Source: a virus | Reading direction: 5' to 3' (one strand) | UHGV virus genome: UHGV-0365687 | Length of the DNA stretch: 35,238 bases | Part shown: one piece after another, positions 23,932 to 32,558 of the stretch | How positions within the stretch are numbered: position 1 is the first letter of the stretch | Layout of the letters: each line of letters opens with the position of its first letter | Position numbers and translations under genes: made by a program | The notes under the pieces: generated by a model | Told to the model about the DNA's origin: nothing | Database searches by the model: none | Seen by the model: the letters and a program-made list of their open reading frames with translations, nothing else

Positions 23932-23956
23932 GCGCGCAGAAAAAGCGCGTTTTTTT
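23932..23956 (+). terminator. intrinsic terminator (cgcgc/gcgcg stem, 7 T) ending the P-Q transcript
   Basis: Hairpin plus uninterrupted T7 tract on the plus strand. Confidence 0.55.
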
Positions 23957-24632: not shown

Positions 24633-25228
24633 TGGCTGCCTCCTTTGCGAAGCTCTGCGGCGAAATATACAGCTGCGGAAACAATAGCTGCATGTCGGTA
24701 TTCATCATCAGAAAATAAAGAATCTCCCTTAAGTGCATTGACGATACTCTGATGATTTTTTGCCAGCATCTCCACGCCCTGCGCCCGTACTTCAGCCAGA
24801 AAAGCGTCGGTGGCTGGGGTTTGTGGCATTCCTCCGTCTGTTGCGCAGATATACGCGTCAGATATTTCATCCTGCTCTCCATCAAATACATAGCAACTGC
24901 CCCTGATAAACAGCTTCATTGCGGCATTCTCCGCTGCCAGCTCCGTGAAATTAGCCTCCAGCTCTGCAATGCGTTTGCTTTGGGCTTCTCGTTCATCCAA
25001 CAGAGCCTGCACTACTTCAGGGTTGAAAGCTGCGATATAACGAGCGTTGTTCTCTGCGTTTTTCTGTTCGTCGAATCCAGGCCAGTCGACAATATCTCCG
25101 TGATGATTATCTCCTGGTGTGTGCACGGCGTACGTGCCGTATTTGCCCGGCGAAATAAATGCGACCCATTCGCCCTGTGTTGCCTGTTTTGCTAACTCAC
25201 GCAGTGCCTGATAGTTGATTTCGCTCAT
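24629..25228 (-). CDS. Ead/Ea22-like protein (paralogue 1)
   Basis: MSEINYQALRELAKQATQGEW... typical Ead/Ea22 N-terminal region. Confidence 0.65.
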   Translation of the reverse strand: MSEINYQALRELAKQATQGEWVAFISPGKYGTYAVHTPGDNHHGDIVDWPGFDEQKNAENNARYIAAFNPEVVQALLDEREAQSKRIAELEANFTELAAENAAMKLFIRGSCYVFDGEQDEISDAYICATDGGMPQTPATDAFLAEVRAQGVEMLAKNHQSIVNALKGDSLFSDDEYRHAAIVSAAVYFAAELRKGGSQ

Positions 25229-25291
25229 TAAGTCGGTCTCCTTGTTTATGTTCTGAGGTGGAGATCAGGGCGAACACGCCCTGATGTTGTG

Positions 25292-25603
25292 TTATTCAGG
25301 AAATAACGCCCTGATATTTCTGGCCATCTGACTGGTTATCTGTGCGGTTGGTACTGGCTGTGACAGGGGGCGTTCTGTCCTGGTTTGTGTCACTGATAAC
25401 GCCTCATCATCAGCCCATGCAGCCAGTCGGTAAGCCTCTGCCGGATTCATTTTCAGAAGTGCCAGCCCGGCCAGAAAAGCCACGCGTTGGCCGCTTTTGC
25501 GGGCTTCTGGTGTAAGGCTGTCCAGCCAGGCGCATGCTTCGCCTTCGTTCTTGACGGCGGCGGGCTTCAGATAGAAACTTATCCGTCTGGTTGGTGTCGT
25601 CAT
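25292..25603 (-). CDS. parR: ParR/StbB-like small DNA-binding protein
   Basis: 103 aa directly downstream of the ParM-like gene; start MTTPT with AAGGAG RBS; ISFYLKP...LAGLALL resembles ParR N-terminal region. Confidence 0.5.
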   Translation of the reverse strand: MTTPTRRISFYLKPAAVKNEGEACAWLDSLTPEARKSGQRVAFLAGLALLKMNPAEAYRLAAWADDEALSVTQTRTERPLSQPVPTAQITSQMARNIRALFPE

Positions 25604-25607
25604 TGGT

Positions 25608-26567
25608 TTACTCCTTGTCCATTGCGTACAGCCCATTAACCAGAGCAAACTGTGGCACCCCGTCCGCGATGAAAGTCGCATTAACTCCGCAGGCTTCGCG
25701 GATAGCGGGTGCCACAATCTCCGCCCCGCCACCGACAACCATCACCCGCCCGTAACCCGAAAAACCCGCCAGCGCGCGGATCACGCGTTGTTTCAGTGTT
25801 TCTTCCTTTTCACGAATAACCGCCATCAGGCTGGCGTAATGCGCGTCATTGTGGATGTGCTGGCGCAGCCAGGCTTCATCATGGCGATGTTCGATAATGG
25901 TATTGGCGATGTGGTGACTGGTGCGCATACCGTTAGTGGCCATCACCGACAGTACGGCATCGGCCATCAGAGAAACGCCTACGTGTGGATCGCAAAACAC
26001 CTGGCTGATACCTGCCAGTTGCCCCTGAACCTTTGCCACATCCAGCGTGGTTCCGCCCAAATCCACAATCAGCAGGGATTCAAACGGACTCATGTCAGCC
26101 AGTGCCTTAAAGCCAGCCGGAATGGATTCAGGCATAACCCGCACGTTACGGATAGTGAATGCTTCGCCGTTCTGGTACTCCACCGGGCGCATAACGTTCG
26201 CTTTTTTGCGGTTGATGTTGGCCATGTCCGGCTGTGCGTTTGTGTCGAAATACTCGCTCAGTGGCAGGGTGACAACCACATCCACTTCCTGTGGTGTGAT
26301 GCCTGATTTGACCAGCGCGTGATGAATGGCAATTACATTCACATCGCTGTACTGGTATTGCGTGTCGGTCGTCTGGACAAAGCGATCGCTGACCGGATCA
26401 AAACCATAGCGCACGCCATCAAGCATGTAGTTCGCGGGCTGCGTGCCACCGAACGGCGCAGACCATTCCGACTTGAAGCTGTTCGGGCTGATGGCGTTGC
26501 GGCGTTCGCCGTTCTCAGTCCATGCCAGCTTGATGTTGGTGGAGCCGTCGTCGATACAAATTTTCAT
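25608..26567 (-). CDS. parM: ParM/StbA-family actin-like ATPase
   Basis: MKICIDDGSTNIKLAW...ISPNSFK...YSDVNVIAIHHAL...IVDLGGTTLD: strong resemblance to plasmid R1 ParM including the phosphate-binding motifs. Confidence 0.8.
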   Translation of the reverse strand: MKICIDDGSTNIKLAWTENGERRNAISPNSFKSEWSAPFGGTQPANYMLDGVRYGFDPVSDRFVQTTDTQYQYSDVNVIAIHHALVKSGITPQEVDVVVTLPLSEYFDTNAQPDMANINRKKANVMRPVEYQNGEAFTIRNVRVMPESIPAGFKALADMSPFESLLIVDLGGTTLDVAKVQGQLAGISQVFCDPHVGVSLMADAVLSVMATNGMRTSHHIANTIIEHRHDEAWLRQHIHNDAHYASLMAVIREKEETLKQRVIRALAGFSGYGRVMVVGGGAEIVAPAIREACGVNATFIADGVPQFALVNGLYAMDKE

Positions 26568-26598
26568 GTCGCTTTTCCTTATGTTGATTAATTAATCG

Positions 26599-26709
26599 TT
26601 TACGGGATTCTGAAATCCCGTTTTTGTCTGTTTTGTGCTCGCTTCATATATCGCTGCGCGTTTTTTGCTCATTTACGGGATTCGTGAGTCCCGTTTCTGT
26701 CTGTTTTTT
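26599..26709. repeat. two ~36-38 bp direct repeats, each a palindromic hairpin plus T-tract (parC-like candidate)
   Basis: tttacgggattctgaaatcccgtttttgtctgtttt (26599-26634) and tttacgggattcgtgagtcccgtttctgtctgtttttt (26672-26709). Confidence 0.5.
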
Positions 26710-29466
26710 GTTTCCACTGGTCAGGCCACCCCGCAGCAGGTCTGCTTTGCGGCGGGCGCGTTCAGTGGTTTCACTGATTCTCTGTGCGTGCTCTGCGTCG
26801 CGGATGGCGCGCAGCATGTCAGAAAGCACGGTAACGGGGGTTTTCATGGTGTTCTGGTCCTGCTGAAGTGTGGATGCCAGGCGTGCGGCGGCTTCAGGGT
26901 CTGATGCCCCCAGCTGTGCCAGATAGCTGGCGATCGGGTTATGGCGGATCTCCGTGCTGCTTACGCCATGATTACGGCTCAGTCGCTGCCAGAGCTGCGT
27001 GATTCGGCTGTCCGGGCGGGTATCCGGTTTGCGTACAATTTCAAATCCCTGCGGTGCAATGATGCTGCCGTCAACGTACAGACTGCCGCCCCGTAACAGG
27101 TGCTGCATCTGTTGTTCACCGATATGCAGGCCGAGAGATTCAGCAGACTCCCGCCATTCTTTAGCGAGTAACTCGTGGTTATCAGGCAAAGGCCGCTGCT
27201 GTTTGCGGCTCTGTGTCCAGTTCTGCATTTCATCGCTGCTGTTTTTTGCCTGTTTGTCACGAAGCGAACGCATCAGCGCCCGGCGTTCGTGCCGTTTCAG
27301 TGAGCGCATCCATTCATTTACTTCAACGCCGTCAGGAAGCTGCGGCCACGGTGCTGGCCGTTCTTCCGGCTGTTCTGTCCCGTTGTTGCCTGTTTCCTGT
27401 ACACGGGGACAGTTATTGCCACGAGTCCAAGGGGCGGCAGGGCCGCCCTGAAGGTCAAAACCATTTTCGCGGGTGCTGTCTTCCGCTTCCGGTTTACGTC
27501 TTACCAGCTTCCAGTTATCCGGATGCGTGCACACACGGGAGGATTCCCCGATGAGTGGCGACCAGATCCCGTAAATCTGTACACTCTGTTCGCCGTAATC
27601 GTTCAGCTCATCGGCGAGATCGTAGGCGGTGCGAATCAGGTAGTCTTTGCGTGGAACAAGTACGCCGCCCTGTTTTTCAATGTAGGTGGCAAAACATCCG
27701 GCATCAGCGGCAGCAAGAACCGCATCCATTGCGTCATCCTTCAGCCGTTGCGGGCCTTCCGGGTTGCGAGCCATCTGGCTGGCAAGGCGGCGCAGTTCAC
27801 GCCATACCTGACGGGAAGGGATGCCAAAGAACTGGAACTGGCGGACCCGGTGAAGACGTGCCCAGCCGATGGCACGTTCCACGCTCTCGGCCATTGATTT
27901 TCCGGTTTCGTGGTCAACGCGTGGCTTGCCCGTTTTCGGGTCGATGCCATCCACGGCGCGGCTGTCCAGGTTTTTTCCGATGTAGGTGGCGATATAGCTG
28001 GTCGGTGTGCCTTTTGAGCCGTCGACATACTCCACTTTAAAGCGCGGAGTAATATCATTGCCCAGCTCGTGGCGGTCTTCCTGAATGGCAATATCGCGGG
28101 TGATGGCCACGATGCTGTCGATTTCTTCCGGATGAGCAAAGACCATCATATGCCAGTGCACGGTGCCGTCATGGTGAGGCTCCACCGTGCGGATGCCATA
28201 CCAGCGCAGGCCGTCGCGATTCAGTTTTTTGCGGACCGCCGCAAAAAACGTGTTAACCAGGTAATCGCTGGAGTCGCGCATGGTGGCCCCGTTCCATTTG
28301 GGGTTCGGATGACCATTCTCCGTTGTTGCGTGGTATTTTGACGGGCAGGTGACAGTCAGAAACACCGCTTTGTCGCCACGGGCTTCGGCCAGAAGTTCCA
28401 GCCCCTTCATGGTGGCCATCATTTCTGCCTTACGGTGAACCGGGTTACTTACTCCCGCGTAATACACTGTCTCGAGATCAATCGTGAACCCGTCTTCGTT
28501 TTCCAGCATGAAACTTTTCAGGAAATCGCGTGTTTTCTCGCGCTGTGCGCGAAACTCGCTTAACGCGTCCTGGCTCAGATAGGGTGATGTTTTTCTGGAA
28601 ACCAGACAGGCGGCGCGGAGTTGTTCTTCTCTCCACTCGCAACGTAACAGCCACAGTTTGCGTTTCCACCATTCCGCACAGGTCAGGCGAAGGATTGCGC
28701 CCGGCAGCAGCTCCGTGTCCGGTTCGTTCCCCCGGTCTTTATCTGTTGTCAGTGCGTCATAATGTGGAGGCATGATGTGCAGGTGTAACGCCATGCGGGC
28801 CAGCATCTGATACGCCTTCAGCGTTACATCCATGGTCAGTTCGCCATCGGTCGCGCCAAAGCCATCGCAGAGTTTTTCGAAGGTGCTGCTGAACATCGCC
28901 GCCGTCATGGTGGCCAGCGTCTGTATCTGGTGTTTGTTGAGCTGCGGCAGGTAAAGCAAATCGTCCAGGCGTTCGCGTCCGGCAAGGGAGCGATAACCCG
29001 GTGTCAGCCAGTGTCCGTCAGTGCGATCCAGACGTTCGAATATTTTGCGCAGGGTTCCGCGTGCATAGCGTTCCGCCTGCCAGCTCTTTTTGCCTTTCCG
29101 GCGATCGGCTTCCTGTTTTTTGCGCAGGAAGGAGAGGTGGCGAATAAGCGGATCGCGCAGATAGGACGGCAGCAGGCGCAGCGAGGCCATGGCTTCATCC
29201 ACCGCGCCGCGTGCCTGTTTTCTGGCGTCTCCTGCCAGTGTGATGGTTTTGTCCTGTTTTTCCTGTGCGTCCAGGCTTTTATTAATCAGGTTGCCCAGTG
29301 GCGTGGCGGAGAACGCCGCATCAGCCATTTCCTGGCGGCGCTCGTTCTCTACCCGGTAGGCATCCAGCCAGGAGGAAAGCGCGGATTCAGGAGCGGGGAT
29401 CCCCGTTCCTTCACGCCCCACTGCGTGGCGCGGTTGTTGCCAGTCCCTGATGTACTCTGCCGTCAT
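26644..29466 (-). CDS. A: replication initiation endonuclease A (HUH rolling-circle initiator)
   Basis: 940 aa with HWHMMVF HUH motif, P2 A-like. Confidence 0.88.
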   Translation of the reverse strand: MTAEYIRDWQQPRHAVGREGTGIPAPESALSSWLDAYRVENERRQEMADAAFSATPLGNLINKSLDAQEKQDKTITLAGDARKQARGAVDEAMASLRLLPSYLRDPLIRHLSFLRKKQEADRRKGKKSWQAERYARGTLRKIFERLDRTDGHWLTPGYRSLAGRERLDDLLYLPQLNKHQIQTLATMTAAMFSSTFEKLCDGFGATDGELTMDVTLKAYQMLARMALHLHIMPPHYDALTTDKDRGNEPDTELLPGAILRLTCAEWWKRKLWLLRCEWREEQLRAACLVSRKTSPYLSQDALSEFRAQREKTRDFLKSFMLENEDGFTIDLETVYYAGVSNPVHRKAEMMATMKGLELLAEARGDKAVFLTVTCPSKYHATTENGHPNPKWNGATMRDSSDYLVNTFFAAVRKKLNRDGLRWYGIRTVEPHHDGTVHWHMMVFAHPEEIDSIVAITRDIAIQEDRHELGNDITPRFKVEYVDGSKGTPTSYIATYIGKNLDSRAVDGIDPKTGKPRVDHETGKSMAESVERAIGWARLHRVRQFQFFGIPSRQVWRELRRLASQMARNPEGPQRLKDDAMDAVLAAADAGCFATYIEKQGGVLVPRKDYLIRTAYDLADELNDYGEQSVQIYGIWSPLIGESSRVCTHPDNWKLVRRKPEAEDSTRENGFDLQGGPAAPWTRGNNCPRVQETGNNGTEQPEERPAPWPQLPDGVEVNEWMRSLKRHERRALMRSLRDKQAKNSSDEMQNWTQSRKQQRPLPDNHELLAKEWRESAESLGLHIGEQQMQHLLRGGSLYVDGSIIAPQGFEIVRKPDTRPDSRITQLWQRLSRNHGVSSTEIRHNPIASYLAQLGASDPEAAARLASTLQQDQNTMKTPVTVLSDMLRAIRDAEHAQRISETTERARRKADLLRGGLTSGNKKQTETGLTNPVNEQKTRSDI

Positions 29467-31976: not shown

Positions 31977-32351
31977 TCAGTCAATGAAGCGGACTTCTTT
32001 TTTATTAGCTTCCAGAGCGGGGTTGGCAGAGATCTCCTTAATTAAGAGTTTCTCCTGGTCTTTAGACTCGGCTACGATGATGTAAATTTTGTCGTCAGCA
32101 ACAGCGAGGCGAACTCGCTTGCCGATATTGGTGGCTGGCGAATTTTCTTTTGTTTGCTGTGCCCTGATAACTTCCAGCTCGGCAGCCTGTTTTTCGATGA
32201 TTTCAGCGGCTTCAGTAGCAGTTTTGGCGATTATTAATGAGAGAGTTGCGGTGTCCATGTGGCCATTCGCCATGGCTTCTTTTGCTACTTCACCTTGCAT
32301 ATCTGCGATTTCATTCAGGTTGTGAATAATGCCTTCTTCTTTTGCGTACAT
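31977..32351 (-). CDS. hypothetical protein
   Basis: 124 aa, operon context. Confidence 0.45.
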   Translation of the reverse strand: MYAKEEGIIHNLNEIADMQGEVAKEAMANGHMDTATLSLIIAKTATEAAEIIEKQAAELEVIRAQQTKENSPATNIGKRVRLAVADDKIYIIVAESKDQEKLLIKEISANPALEANKKEVRFID

Positions 32352-32444
32352 TTTTGTATCTCCGTTATTTACGTGTGCGAACGCCTCCGCGAATGCGGAT
32401 GGTTTTCATGTTTTCGTATTTAATCTTGTGTTTTGTTTATGCTG

Positions 32445-32558
32445 TTATTCGCCAGTGAAAAAACGTTCAATCTTTTTTACTGAATGAATAATTCGCATAA
32501 TACCAATTACGCAAACCACCGAAAAAATCAGAACAAGCCACGAAATAAATATATTCAT
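32445..32558 (-). CDS. small hydrophobic peptide (37 aa), translationally coupled to the upstream ORF
   Basis: Manual translation MNIFISWLVLIFSVVCVIGIMRIIHSVKKIERFFTGE; ATGA overlap with the stop of 32555..32797. Confidence 0.35.
   Translation of the reverse strand: MNIFISWLVLIFSVVCVIGIMRIIHSVKKIERFFTGE

What the first reader, a model, noticed from the sequence alone, without database searches (positions are those of the whole stretch)
26599..26709. Tandem hairpin-plus-T-tract repeats at the A/parM junction, the second lying inside the 3' end of A
Two near-identical ~36-38 bp units each contain an 8 bp or 6 bp stem palindrome followed by a T-run. Their position immediately upstream of parM fits a parC-like centromere/operator. 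On the plus strand they also look like intrinsic terminators that would block antisense transcription into A. Copy 2 encodes part of the C-terminal tail of A, suggesting the A reading frame was extended or remodelled when this cargo was acquired.
Basis: seen in the sequence. Interest (0 to 1): 0.4.

Follow-up and report, generated by a model that had tools for sequence, protein, structure and literature searches.

The report
Two-site centromere upstream of phage parM
Two 42-bp repeats between the replication gene A and the actin-like gene parM of a P2-like E. coli prophage are most likely the docking site (centromere) for the phage's ParR protein, not transcription terminators, and they arrived together with the parM-parR genes, rewriting the last ~30 codons of gene A.

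Summary
Two 42-nt direct repeats (26596-26637 and 26669-26710, 35/42 identical, 73 bp apart) each carry the palindrome ACGGGATT-N4-AATCCCGT; the distal copy lies inside the 3' end of gene A.

The window is a P88-like (Xuanwuvirus, P2-like) prophage. A, parM and parR all lie on the minus strand, at the end of the early operon.

The best explanation is a parC-type, two-part ParR binding site:
- The repeats travel with parM-parR, not with A. Recombinant loci break at 26708, 26730 and 26744.
- Phages from Hafnia and Plesiomonas, whose ParM is only 62-63% identical, also have exactly two GGG-N10-CCC dyads, 72-73 bp apart, at the same distance from the parM start. Their inner sequence, hairpin strength and T-runs are not conserved.
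- The dyads occur only where ParR has the strand TRR(I/V)SFYL.
- The region has helically phased A-tracts.

The plus-strand terminator reading is not supported. No RNA covariation was found.

The remodelling of A's tail is supported, but only for the last ~27-32 residues, not ~180.

ParR binding itself is inferred, not shown. I class this as a new variant of a known kind, of moderate interest.

The parts
26669..26710 (-). Distal 42-bp repeat unit. It lies inside the last codons of A and forms the outer (left) edge of the parMR module.
   Evidence: repeat family D1. Homology in the recombinants L045 and L188 resumes at 26708.
26677..26692 (.). Distal dyad GGG-N10-CCC, the core of the palindrome 26675-26694.
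   Evidence: The CGGGA/TCCCG cores are nearly invariant in 65 haplotypes.
26638..26668 (-). 31-bp spacer between the units. It contains the A stop codon (TGA, 26644-26646) and is the most polymorphic part of the region.
   Evidence: 29% of sites polymorphic.
26596..26637 (-). Proximal 42-bp repeat unit, in the A-parM intergenic region.
26604..26619 (.). Proximal dyad GGG-N10-CCC, the core of the perfect palindrome 26602-26621.
26709..26744 (-). Junction zone between the A core and the parMR cargo module, where recombination breakpoints cluster.
   Evidence: Breakpoints at 26744 (L186), 26730 (L187) and 26708 (L045).
26644..29466 (-). Replication initiator gene A (940 aa, Phage_GPA). Its last ~27-32 codons are supplied by the parMR module.
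26576..26580 (-). Shine-Dalgarno sequence (AAGGA) of parM. It is not covered by either hairpin.
25608..26567 (-). parM, an actin-like ATPase (319 aa).
   Evidence: Pfam StbA_N 1.8e-82 plus ParM C-terminal domain 1.3e-68.
25292..25603 (-). parR, the centromere-binding adaptor (103 aa). It has an N-terminal ribbon-helix-helix strand TRRISFYLKP and a C-terminal ParM-binding tail ARNIRALFPE.
   Evidence: Pfam Plasmid_stab_B 4e-24. The family profile hits pB171 ParR, PDB 2JD3, at E=5e-24. Translation.

Best explanation
The two 42-bp units form the cis-acting site (parC-type centromere) of a phage-borne type II ParMRC system.

Each unit contains a 16-bp dyad, GGG-N10-CCC, extended in this phage to ACGGGATT-N4-AATCCCGT and flanked by A-tracts. 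The two dyads are 73 bp apart, about seven helical turns, so they lie on the same face of a region with helically phased A-tracts that suggest intrinsic curvature.

Proposed mechanism (inferred). Dimers of the ribbon-helix-helix protein ParR bind the dyad arms, possibly spreading onto the A-tract flanks. Together with the DNA curvature they fold the ~115-bp region into a compact complex. That complex presents the ParR C-terminal tails to the ends of ParM filaments, so filament growth moves or positions free copies of the phage genome.

The T-runs that look like terminator tails on the plus strand are the A-tracts of this site, read on the other strand.

The site, parM and parR entered the P2-type cargo hotspot downstream of A as one module. 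The module's left edge lies inside the A reading frame, so it supplies A's last ~27-32 codons and its stop codon.

No promoter or minus-strand terminator is detectable between A and parM. parMR is therefore probably read through from the early lytic operon, and any ParR control would be by roadblock rather than by promoter occlusion.

Shown: sequence anatomy, co-inheritance, cross-lineage conservation, restriction to one ParR type, A-tract phasing. Inferred: ParR binding, complex geometry, biological role.
For: 1. Repeat and palindromes are far above chance.

2. Intact partners sit immediately downstream. ParM has full-length Pfam domains. ParR matches PF10784, and its family profile hits the solved pB171 ParR (2JD3) at E=5e-24. 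Its N-terminal strand and its C-terminal LFP tail align with R1 and other ParRs.

3. The repeats belong to the parMR module.
- In L045/L188 a different 155-aa ORF precedes parM, and homology to the window resumes exactly at 26708, the outer edge of the distal unit.
- In L186 and L187, A genes 95% identical to this one carry other cargo. They lose homology at 26744 and 26730 and have no dyads.
- In L085, A stops before the distal hairpin, yet the unit is kept.

4. Cross-lineage test. P2-like prophages of Hafnia (L093) and Plesiomonas (L095), with ParM 62-63% identical, have exactly two GGG-N10-CCC dyads at -128/-55 and -131/-59 from the parM ATG, spaced 73 and 72 bp. The window has -125/-52, spaced 73 bp. 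In each source these are the only pair spaced 70-75 bp, among 6, 5 and 3 dyads in 35, 9 and 9 kb.

5. The dyads are present in 3 of 3 lineages with the ParR strand TRR(I/V)SFYL. They are absent in the 4 Serratia/Enterobacter-type loci examined (ParR strand NRKISFYLKP), in 10 plasmid-type or more distant loci and in the 24 metagenome loci whose ParR strand differs.

6. In every P88-like locus that matches the extended motif, the motif lies only at these two fixed positions.

7. Helical phasing of A4/T4 tracts in 26546-26755 ranks 6th-15th of 7020 windows. R1 parC is likewise strongly curved and two-part (PMC2241845).

8. Within 65 E. coli haplotypes the dyad cores are the least polymorphic non-coding part (5% of sites) and the spacer the most (29%).
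Against: - No binding data exist; the ParR-dyad link is correlative, and the GGG-N10-CCC motif was defined after inspecting the sequences.
- Only two sites are present, whereas R1 has ten iterons. The characterised ParRs bind direct repeats (PMC9426499), while the conserved core here is a dyad.
- No sigma-70-like promoter lies in or near the site, unlike R1 parC, so the operator function is unsupported.
- Similarity of the T-rich parts to plasmid parC iterons is not significant (best z = 1.9).
- Within the E. coli population the repeats are only modestly more conserved than their neighbours, and common variants change positions within or next to the dyad cores (26621 A>G, 26604 C>T).
- The phage is almost always integrated in the chromosome (1452 of 1454 places), so it is unclear what a centromere would be for.
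- The Serratia/Enterobacter relatives use a different architecture.
Confidence: 0.65

Rival explanations
1. Intrinsic (Rho-independent) terminators acting on the plus strand. They would stop antisense or read-through transcription, for example from the late portal/terminase operon, before it enters A.
For: - On the plus strand both units match a hairpin-plus-T-run pattern.
- The hairpins fold at -10.2 kcal/mol.
- A lenient terminator criterion is met by 22/43 (proximal) and 38/43 (distal) E. coli haplotypes.
Against: - The stems are short (8 bp, 4 G-C pairs) and the U-tracts are interrupted (UUUUUGUCU, UUUCUGUCU).
- No promoter-like site lies on the plus strand in 25200-27200.
- A stronger plus-strand terminator (23932-23950 followed by T7) directly follows the portal gene.
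- Common haplotypes introduce C.A mismatches into the plus-strand proximal stem; 10/43 fold weaker than -6 kcal/mol.
- Hafnia and Plesiomonas relatives keep the dyads and their spacing but have no T-run after them on either strand, and the Plesiomonas stems are only 4 bp.
- A terminator role does not explain the conserved 72-73-bp spacing or the restriction to one ParR type.
Confidence: 0.07
2. RNA hairpins in the sense (minus-strand) polycistronic mRNA. They would act in processing, stabilisation or translational control at the A-parM boundary.
For: - Minus-strand RNA hairpins fold at -10.7 and -9.0 kcal/mol, z = -4.6 and -2.9.
- The frequent variants in the proximal stem (A>G, C>U) keep G.U pairing on the minus strand only (28 cells).
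- No terminator or promoter separates A and parM, so both units are probably transcribed.
Against: - There is no compensatory change in either hairpin, and all covariation measures are no better than shuffles (95/500 and 295/500).
- Changes in the distal stem are mostly disruptive (19 unpaired cells).
- The hairpins do not cover the parM Shine-Dalgarno sequence.
- In Plesiomonas only 3-4 bp of stem remain, while the GGG/CCC triplets and their spacing are kept.
Confidence: 0.1
3. A non-functional scar. The repeat would be a duplication created when the cargo module recombined into the hotspot, or a recombination site used for cargo exchange.
For: - Recombination breakpoints cluster at or next to the distal unit (26708-26744).
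- This is a known cargo hotspot of P2-like phages, with different cargo in L186 and L187.
Against: - Both copies, and the 72-73-bp spacing, are kept in lineages whose surrounding DNA is no longer alignable.
- Loci with other cargo lack any copy, so this is not a general exchange site.
- The dyad cores are conserved while the spacer drifts.
Confidence: 0.08
4. A repeat at the protein level. Both copies are read in the same register, as KQT(E/K)TG(L/F)(T/Q)NPVN(E/D): once as the A tail and once in a 26-codon mini-ORF (26592-26672, minus strand). The conserved object would then be a peptide.
For: - Translations are.
- The mini-ORF is intact in 62 of 65 haplotypes.
- One contig fuses A to the mini-ORF through a 1-nt deletion in the A6 run.
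Against: - All three frames are open across the T-poor unit, so an open frame carries no information.
- No Shine-Dalgarno sequence precedes the mini-ORF ATG.
- Many changes are non-synonymous.
- In L085, A stops before the unit.
- In Hafnia and Plesiomonas the overlapping ORFs read the dyads in other frames and give unrelated peptides.
Confidence: 0.03

Closest known systems
parC of plasmid R1 (ParMRC, type II partition)
   Same: - It lies directly upstream of parM-parR.
- It is two-part: two protein-binding blocks separated by an unbound spacer (39 bp in R1, 31 bp here).
- It is A-rich on the coding strand and curved (PMC2241845; the R1-type sequence is in L089).
- Its ParR has the same N-terminal strand / helix-helix / C-terminal tail layout.
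   Different: - R1 has 2 x 5 direct 11-bp iterons with the par promoter in the spacer.
- Here there are 2 x 1 units of 42 bp, each built around a 16-bp dyad.
- No promoter is detectable here, and the spacer holds the stop codon of the upstream gene.
- There is no significant sequence similarity.
- ParM is ~46-47% identical in IncF-type plasmids annotated parM/stbA.
- ParR here is shorter, 103 aa, and lacks a ~23-residue central segment.
parC of pB171 par1 and other characterised ParR sites (pSK41, pCW3)
   Same: [quoted passage not shown] The ParR family profile that includes this protein hits the pB171 ParR structure 2JD3.
   Different: According to PMC9426499, all characterised ParRs bind direct repeats. 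Here the conserved core of each unit is an inverted repeat (GGG-N10-CCC), and the two units are 73 bp apart rather than adjacent.
AlpA-AlpC-alpS of Corynebacterium glutamicum prophage CGP3
   Same: An integrated prophage carries an actin-like filament protein, a DNA-binding adaptor and repeated adaptor sites next to the operon. The genes are early-induced and are needed for efficient phage DNA replication and transport (PMC4446434 and PMC5539076). This gives a plausible role for a centromere in a phage that integrates.
   Different: - The proteins are unrelated at the sequence level (AlpC/AlpA versus ParM/ParR of the R1 family).
- The gene order is the opposite (adaptor first).
- alpS consists of 24 short repeats (TTAAnnG) in the promoter region, not two dyads.
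Cargo hotspot between A and the portal gene of P2-like phages (tin/old region of P2)
   Same: The position is the same, and so is the behaviour: alternative cargo modules follow nearly identical A genes (Dam methylase + AAA ATPase in L186; AAA ATPase + S8 peptidase in L187). That this region is a cargo hotspot in P2 rests on my own knowledge, not on a tool result.
   Different: The cargo here is a partition-type module with its own cis site rather than a recognised defence system; PADLOC gives no hit. It is by far the commonest cargo behind this A type in E. coli (1301 of 1370 genomes).

Membership tests
ParMRC (type II) partition locus: parC centromere | The cis site lies immediately upstream of a parM-parR gene pair. 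| tested here: met
   The units lie at 26596-26710. parM is 25608-26567 and parR is 25292-25603, on the same strand.
ParMRC (type II) partition locus: parC centromere | Cognate ParR of the ribbon-helix-helix StbB/ParR family with a C-terminal ParM-binding tail. | tested here: met
   PF10784 at 4e-24. The family profile hits 2JD3 (pB171 ParR) at E=5e-24. The aligned N-terminal strand and the ...N(I/A)xxLFP tail are present. The fold itself was not modelled.
ParMRC (type II) partition locus: parC centromere | Intact actin-like ParM. | tested here: met
   Full-length StbA_N (1-157 of 158) and ParM C-terminal (1-159 of 159) Pfam matches.
ParMRC (type II) partition locus: parC centromere | Array of repeated ParR-binding sequences (direct iterons of ~10-20 bp). 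| tested here: inconclusive
   There are two direct 42-bp units, but only two, and the conserved core is a dyad rather than a direct iteron. Iteron-like GTTTT motifs at ~10-11-bp multiples are visible but are not significantly similar to plasmid iterons.
ParMRC (type II) partition locus: parC centromere | The site co-evolves and co-inherits with its ParR. | tested here: met
   Module breakpoints are at 26708-26744. The dyad pair is found in 3 of 3 lineages with the ParR strand TRR(I/V)SFYL and in no locus examined with another ParR strand.
ParMRC (type II) partition locus: parC centromere | Contains the par promoter and acts as the operator for ParR autoregulation (as in R1). | tested here: not met
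   No sigma-70-like site on either strand in 25200-27200. The candidate -10-like hexamer in the spacer is not conserved among haplotypes. The consensus scan is crude, and other promoter types are not covered.
ParMRC (type II) partition locus: parC centromere | Intrinsically curved DNA (R1 parC). | tested here: met
   Power of A4/T4 tracts at periods of 10.2-11 bp ranks 6th-15th of 7020 windows. This is a proxy; curvature was not modelled or measured.
ParMRC (type II) partition locus: parC centromere | Specific ParR binding, plasmid stabilisation and incompatibility. | not testable with these tools
   This needs EMSA or footprinting and plasmid-loss assays.
Rho-independent terminator (plus strand) | G+C-rich stem-loop directly followed by a U-tract. 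| tested here: inconclusive
   The pattern is matched at 26602-26621 and 26675-26694, but the hairpins are only -10.2 kcal/mol with interrupted U-tracts. 22/43 and 38/43 haplotypes pass a lenient filter.
Rho-independent terminator (plus strand) | A transcription unit on that strand ends there, and the arrangement is conserved in relatives. | tested here: not met
   No plus-strand promoter-like site lies upstream. A better terminator follows the portal gene. Hafnia and Plesiomonas relatives lack a T-run after the dyads.
Structured RNA element (either strand) | Base pairs maintained by compensatory substitutions, or a match to a known RNA family. | tested here: not met
   There are 0 double-sided changes in the two hairpins, and covariation equals the shuffles. 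Rfam has no hit in 26500-26800, even at E<=5.
Replication origin / nick site of the A protein | Present wherever the cognate A gene is present. | tested here: not met
   L186 and L187 carry A genes 95% identical to this one but have no copy of the units or dyads.

The most novel reading that the evidence does not exclude
An integrating P2-like phage, present in about a quarter of complete E. coli genomes, uses an actin-like ParMR machine whose centromere is reduced to two dyad-symmetric ParR sites seven helical turns apart. The centromere has no promoter and overlaps the stop region of the replication initiator gene.

The system would be expressed from the early lytic operon. It would position or separate free, replicating phage genomes, as AlpAC does for prophage CGP3, rather than maintain a plasmid. 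ParR bound at the distal dyad would also act as a roadblock that tunes read-through from A into parMR.
Probability: 0.3. Interest if true: 0.55.

Novelty: new variant of a known kind. Interest (0 to 1): 0.4.

Why it matters
If ParR does bind these two dyads, this is a minimal parC with a different architecture from the studied ones: two inverted-repeat sites 73 bp apart, instead of arrays of direct iterons around a promoter.

It sits in one of the commonest prophage families of E. coli. The junction is present in 1314 of 5426 complete genomes.

It raises a testable question: why does a phage that integrates into the chromosome carry a DNA-segregation machine? It also gives exact coordinates and point mutations for testing that.

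Finally, it is a clear example of a cargo module whose edge lies inside an essential phage gene and rewrites that gene's C-terminus.

Tried and rejected
- **Homology of the T-rich parts to plasmid parC iterons.** Local alignments against eight plasmid or phage-plasmid parC regions were not significant (best z = 1.9), so I claim only a resemblance in composition.
- **Rfam.** No family matches the region.
- **RNA covariation on 43 haplotypes.** No signal.
- **Promoter search.** No site found. Hand inspection of the spacer found only a non-conserved TATATG.
- **Replication origin of A.** Rejected, because A genes with other cargo lack the units.
- **Conserved peptide or mini-ORF, or frameshifting on the A6 run.** Rejected as the main explanation (other lineages read other frames).
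- **Defence-system membership of ParM, ParR or the Ead proteins.** No PADLOC hit.
- **Single-sequence PDB search with ParR.** Nothing found; the family profile was needed.
- **Searches for more lineages with the TRR-type ParR.** IMG/VR with the Hafnia and Plesiomonas ParM, and the metagenome scan, returned only E. coli-type loci or other ParR types. The cross-lineage test therefore rests on three lineages.
- **L101 (ParM 81% identical).** The contig is cut at its start, so it gave no upstream region.
- **Literature.** I found no paper in the held library on the P88 parMR locus.

Full report
**1. The observation**

The repeat finder reports one family of two 42-nt direct copies, 26596-26637 and 26669-26710, 83% identical with a start-to-start spacing of 73.

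Each copy contains a palindrome:
- 26602-26621 is a perfect 8-bp stem with a 4-nt loop (ACGGGATT-CTGA-AATCCCGT on the plus strand).
- 26675-26694 has one imperfect position in this window.

On the plus strand each palindrome is followed by a T-rich run.

The repeat is far above chance. The best 42-mer self-match is 35/42, against 23.5 +/- 1.1 in 300 dinucleotide shuffles. The palindrome pattern occurs nowhere else in the 35-kb window.

The units are direct repeats separated by 31 bp, not strictly tandem. They are about 42 nt long rather than 36-38.

**2. Context**

The window is a P88-like phage or prophage (Xuanwuvirus, Peduoviridae, P2-like). The junction region is 97-99% identical to phage P88 and 13 other phage records. 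It is present in 1314 of 5426 complete E. coli genomes, almost always on the chromosome.

All relevant genes are on the minus strand:
- A, the replication initiator: 26644-29466, 940 aa, Phage_GPA.
- parM: 25608-26567, with full-length StbA_N and ParM C-terminal domains.
- parR: 25292-25603, 103 aa, Plasmid_stab_B.
- Two Ead/Ea22-like genes.

The portal gene follows on the plus strand. Further upstream on the minus strand lie a cox-like gene and the other early genes. A repressor-like HTH gene and the integrase lie on the plus strand. parM-parR therefore sits at the far end of the early operon.

No sigma-70-like promoter on either strand, and no minus-strand terminator, was found between A and parM.

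The distal unit lies inside the last codons of A (stop codon 26644-26646). The proximal unit lies 29-70 nt upstream of the parM start. Neither covers the parM Shine-Dalgarno sequence (26576-26580).

**3. The repeats belong to the parMR module, not to A**

Four natural variants show this.
- In L045 (IMG/VR) and L188 (E. coli 720632), A is 871 aa and is followed by a separate 155-aa ORF. Homology to the window is lost at 27230 and resumes at 26708, the outer edge of the distal unit. The foreign ORF then reads through the unit to the same stop codon.
- In L186, an A gene 95% identical is followed by a Dam methylase and an AAA ATPase. Homology ends at 26744 and A has a different 33-residue tail.
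- In L187, A is followed by an AAA ATPase and an S8 peptidase. Homology ends at 26730 and the tail is ...LLQDKGNSEKKK.
- In L085, A stops (TAA) just before the distal hairpin, yet the unit is retained.

L186 and L187 contain no copy of the units or of the dyad. This also rules out the idea that the hairpins are the origin or nick site of the A protein.

The left edge of the module therefore lies within 26708-26744, and the last ~27-32 residues of A are supplied by the cargo. The preceding ~220 C-terminal residues are shared with A genes that carry other cargo. In the phage collection they are found only in Xuanwuvirus records. Of 1370 E. coli genomes with this A 3' end, 1301 carry the parMR-type tail.

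**4. Cross-lineage test**

A ParM search and contig look-ups found parM-parR in the same position, between A and the portal gene, in P2-like prophages of:
- Hafnia (L093, ParM 62% identical),
- Plesiomonas (L095, 63%),
- Serratia (L096 and L098, 57-58%),
- Enterobacter (L099, 54%),
- two IMG/VR contigs (L107, L108).

The upstream DNA is no longer alignable as a whole. Even so, Plesiomonas has two 26-nt repeats 72 bp apart, and the distal one is again overlapped by the end of A.

Reducing the comparison to what is shared gives a 16-bp dyad, GGG-N10-CCC. It occurs exactly twice upstream of parM in each of three lineages:

| Lineage | Position from the parM ATG | Spacing |
|---|---|---|
| Window | -125 and -52 | 73 bp |
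| Hafnia | -128 and -55 | 73 bp |
| Plesiomonas | -131 and -59 | 72 bp |

The dyad is rare: 6 in the 35-kb window, 5 and 3 in the two 9-kb loci. In each case the only pair spaced 70-75 bp is this one.

The inner ten bases are not conserved. In Plesiomonas only 3-4 bp of stem can form. In Hafnia and Plesiomonas no T-run follows the dyads on either strand.

What is conserved is therefore a pair of dyad-symmetric DNA sites at a fixed distance from each other and from parM. It is not a hairpin and not a terminator.

I defined the motif after seeing the E. coli and Plesiomonas sequences. The Hafnia result is thus the cleanest independent test, and three lineages is a small sample.

**5. Link to ParR**

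The three lineages with the dyad pair have the ParR N-terminal strand TRR(I/V)SFYL(K/N)P. The Serratia/Enterobacter group has NRKISFYLKP and a different site. That site has two ~20-bp elements (CGGGAAC-GATATAGAAAAAT) in inverted orientation about 60 bp apart.

No dyad pair is found upstream of parM in 10 plasmid-type or more distant loci or in 24 metagenome loci with other ParR strands.

The aligned ParRs share the N-terminal strand, two helices and the C-terminal ...N(I/A)xxLFP tail. The family profile hits the solved pB171 ParR (2JD3) at E=5e-24. The E. coli-type ParR is short and lacks a ~23-residue central segment.

In every P88-like locus that matches the extended motif CGGGATT-N4-AATCCCG, the motif lies only at the two fixed positions.

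**6. DNA shape and population variation**

A4/T4 tracts in 26546-26755 are phased with the helical repeat. The region ranks 6th-15th of 7020 windows, and only one other locus in the window (~32276-32480) is comparable. R1 parC is also strongly curved (PMC2241845).

The table shows the share of sites polymorphic at 5% or more among 65 distinct E. coli-type haplotypes:

| Region | Polymorphic sites |
|---|---|
| Dyad cores (CGGGA/TCCCG) | 5% |
| Distal unit | 10% |
| Proximal unit | 19% |
| Spacer | 29% |
| A core (coding) | 18% |
| parM (coding) | 3% |

The signal of constraint within this shallow population is modest. Two common variants (26621 A>G, 26604 C>T) touch positions within or next to the dyad cores.

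**7. Rival readings**

*Plus-strand terminators.* The pattern is matched, and within the E. coli type 22/43 and 38/43 haplotypes pass a lenient filter, so I cannot exclude an incidental effect. Several points argue against a terminator function:
- The hairpins are weak (-10.2 kcal/mol) and their U-tracts are interrupted.
- There is no plus-strand promoter-like site upstream.
- A better terminator follows the portal gene at 23932-23950.
- The arrangement is not conserved in the relatives that keep the dyads.

*Sense-strand RNA hairpins.* They fold, and the frequent changes in the proximal stem are G.U-compatible on the minus strand. However, there is no compensatory change, covariation is no better than in shuffles, and changes in the distal stem are disruptive. 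Rfam has no match.

*Peptide repeat or mini-ORF.* Both copies are read in the same register: KQTETGLTNPVNE in A, and KQTKTGFQNPVND in a 26-codon ORF at 26592-26672. The ORF is intact in 62/65 haplotypes. Against this:
- All three frames are open across this T-poor sequence.
- No Shine-Dalgarno sequence precedes the mini-ORF ATG.
- Many substitutions are non-synonymous.
- The other lineages read their dyads in other frames.

*Recombination scar.* Breakpoints do cluster here. A scar, however, does not explain why both copies and their spacing are kept in distant lineages.

**8. Most likely mechanism**

Shown:
- a two-part, dyad-containing DNA element with phased A-tracts;
- its co-inheritance with an intact parM-parR pair;
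- its conserved geometry in distant relatives;
- its restriction to one ParR type.

Inferred: ParR dimers bind the dyad arms, possibly spreading onto the A-tract flanks. The two sites are seven helical turns apart, so they lie on one face of the DNA. They would form a compact partition complex that presents ParR tails to ParM filament ends, as in R1, where two ParR blocks on parC form a U-shaped complex (PMC2241845).

The phage integrates, and the genes sit at the end of the early operon. The likely cargo of this machine is therefore the free, replicating phage genome after infection or induction. This would be analogous to AlpA-AlpC-alpS of prophage CGP3, which is early-induced and needed for efficient phage DNA replication (PMC4446434, PMC5539076). 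That last step is speculation by analogy.

**9. Comparison with known systems and novelty**

The proteins are ordinary members of the R1/pB171 ParM and ParR families. The site differs from characterised parC sites in four ways:
- It has only two units.
- Each unit is built on an inverted repeat. A 2022 paper states that all characterised ParRs bind direct repeats (PMC9426499).
- It has no detectable promoter.
- It overlaps the end of an essential upstream gene.

I found no paper in the held library that describes this locus.

I class it as a new variant of a known kind and rate it of moderate interest. The terminator idea is not supported. The idea that A's tail was remodelled is right, but on a smaller scale than suggested.

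Noticed in passing
window 26592-26672 (minus strand): A 26-codon mini-ORF (MSKKRAAIYEASTKQTKTGFQNPVND) starts inside the A tail. It repeats the A-tail peptide in the same register and is intact in 62/65 haplotypes. In one contig a 1-nt deletion in the A6 run (26661-26666) fuses A to it, giving an A protein with a duplicated tail. This is probably a by-product of T-poor DNA, but it has not been tested.
   Followed up: partly
window 26637-26640 with 26656-26659: In most haplotypes the spacer can form a 4-bp GC stem (GCGC/GCGC) around the A stop codon. One haplotype shows a G-C to A-U double change; the window's own copy breaks one pair.
   Followed up: partly
window ~32276-32480: This is the only other locus in the window with helically phased A4/T4 tracts as strong as those at the parM junction. 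It spans the end of a 124-aa minus-strand ORF and the T-rich stretch that follows it in the early region.
   Followed up: no
window 25264-25285: A 9-bp-stem GC-rich hairpin lies just after the parR stop. It has no T-run on the minus strand and is followed by the Shine-Dalgarno sequence of the next (Ead/Ea22-like) gene. A sub-threshold Rfam match to STnc320 (20.7 bits, gathering score 50) overlaps it.
   Followed up: no
L186 (NZ_OW967003.1) and L187 (NZ_CP157152.1): Nearly identical P88-type A genes carry other cargo: Dam methylase + AAA ATPase in L186, and AAA ATPase + S8 peptidase in L187. Each gives A its own C-terminal tail, so this hotspot's insertion point lies inside the A reading frame.
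   Followed up: partly
L045 3457-3924 and L188 3489-3956: In this variant prophage A is 871 aa and a separate 155-aa ORF with a CxxC...CxxC motif sits between A and parM. The ORF borrows the last 21 residues and the stop codon from the distal repeat unit.
   Followed up: partly
window 25292-25603 (ParR), alignment A1: The E. coli-type ParR (102-103 aa) lacks a ~23-residue central segment that is present in plasmid ParRs and in the Hafnia, Plesiomonas and Serratia phage ParRs.
   Followed up: no
L096, L098, L099, L107, L108, upstream of parM: The Serratia/Enterobacter-type phage parMR loci have a different site upstream of parM. It is a long inverted repeat (CGGGAAC-GATATAGAAAAAT ... ATTTTTCTGTTTC-GTTCCC) with ~26 bp between the arms. 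Its T-rich arm resembles the TATTTTTCT iterons of IncF and IncL/M plasmid parC regions.
   Followed up: partly
L007 (NZ_JBQPOM010000071.1) and L092 (NZ_CP110658.1): A P88-like prophage with 98%-identical ParM sits on a contig labelled Vagococcus sp. (a Firmicute), which probably reflects contamination or mislabelling. Another complete copy is integrated in a 272-kb IncHI2 Salmonella plasmid.
   Followed up: no
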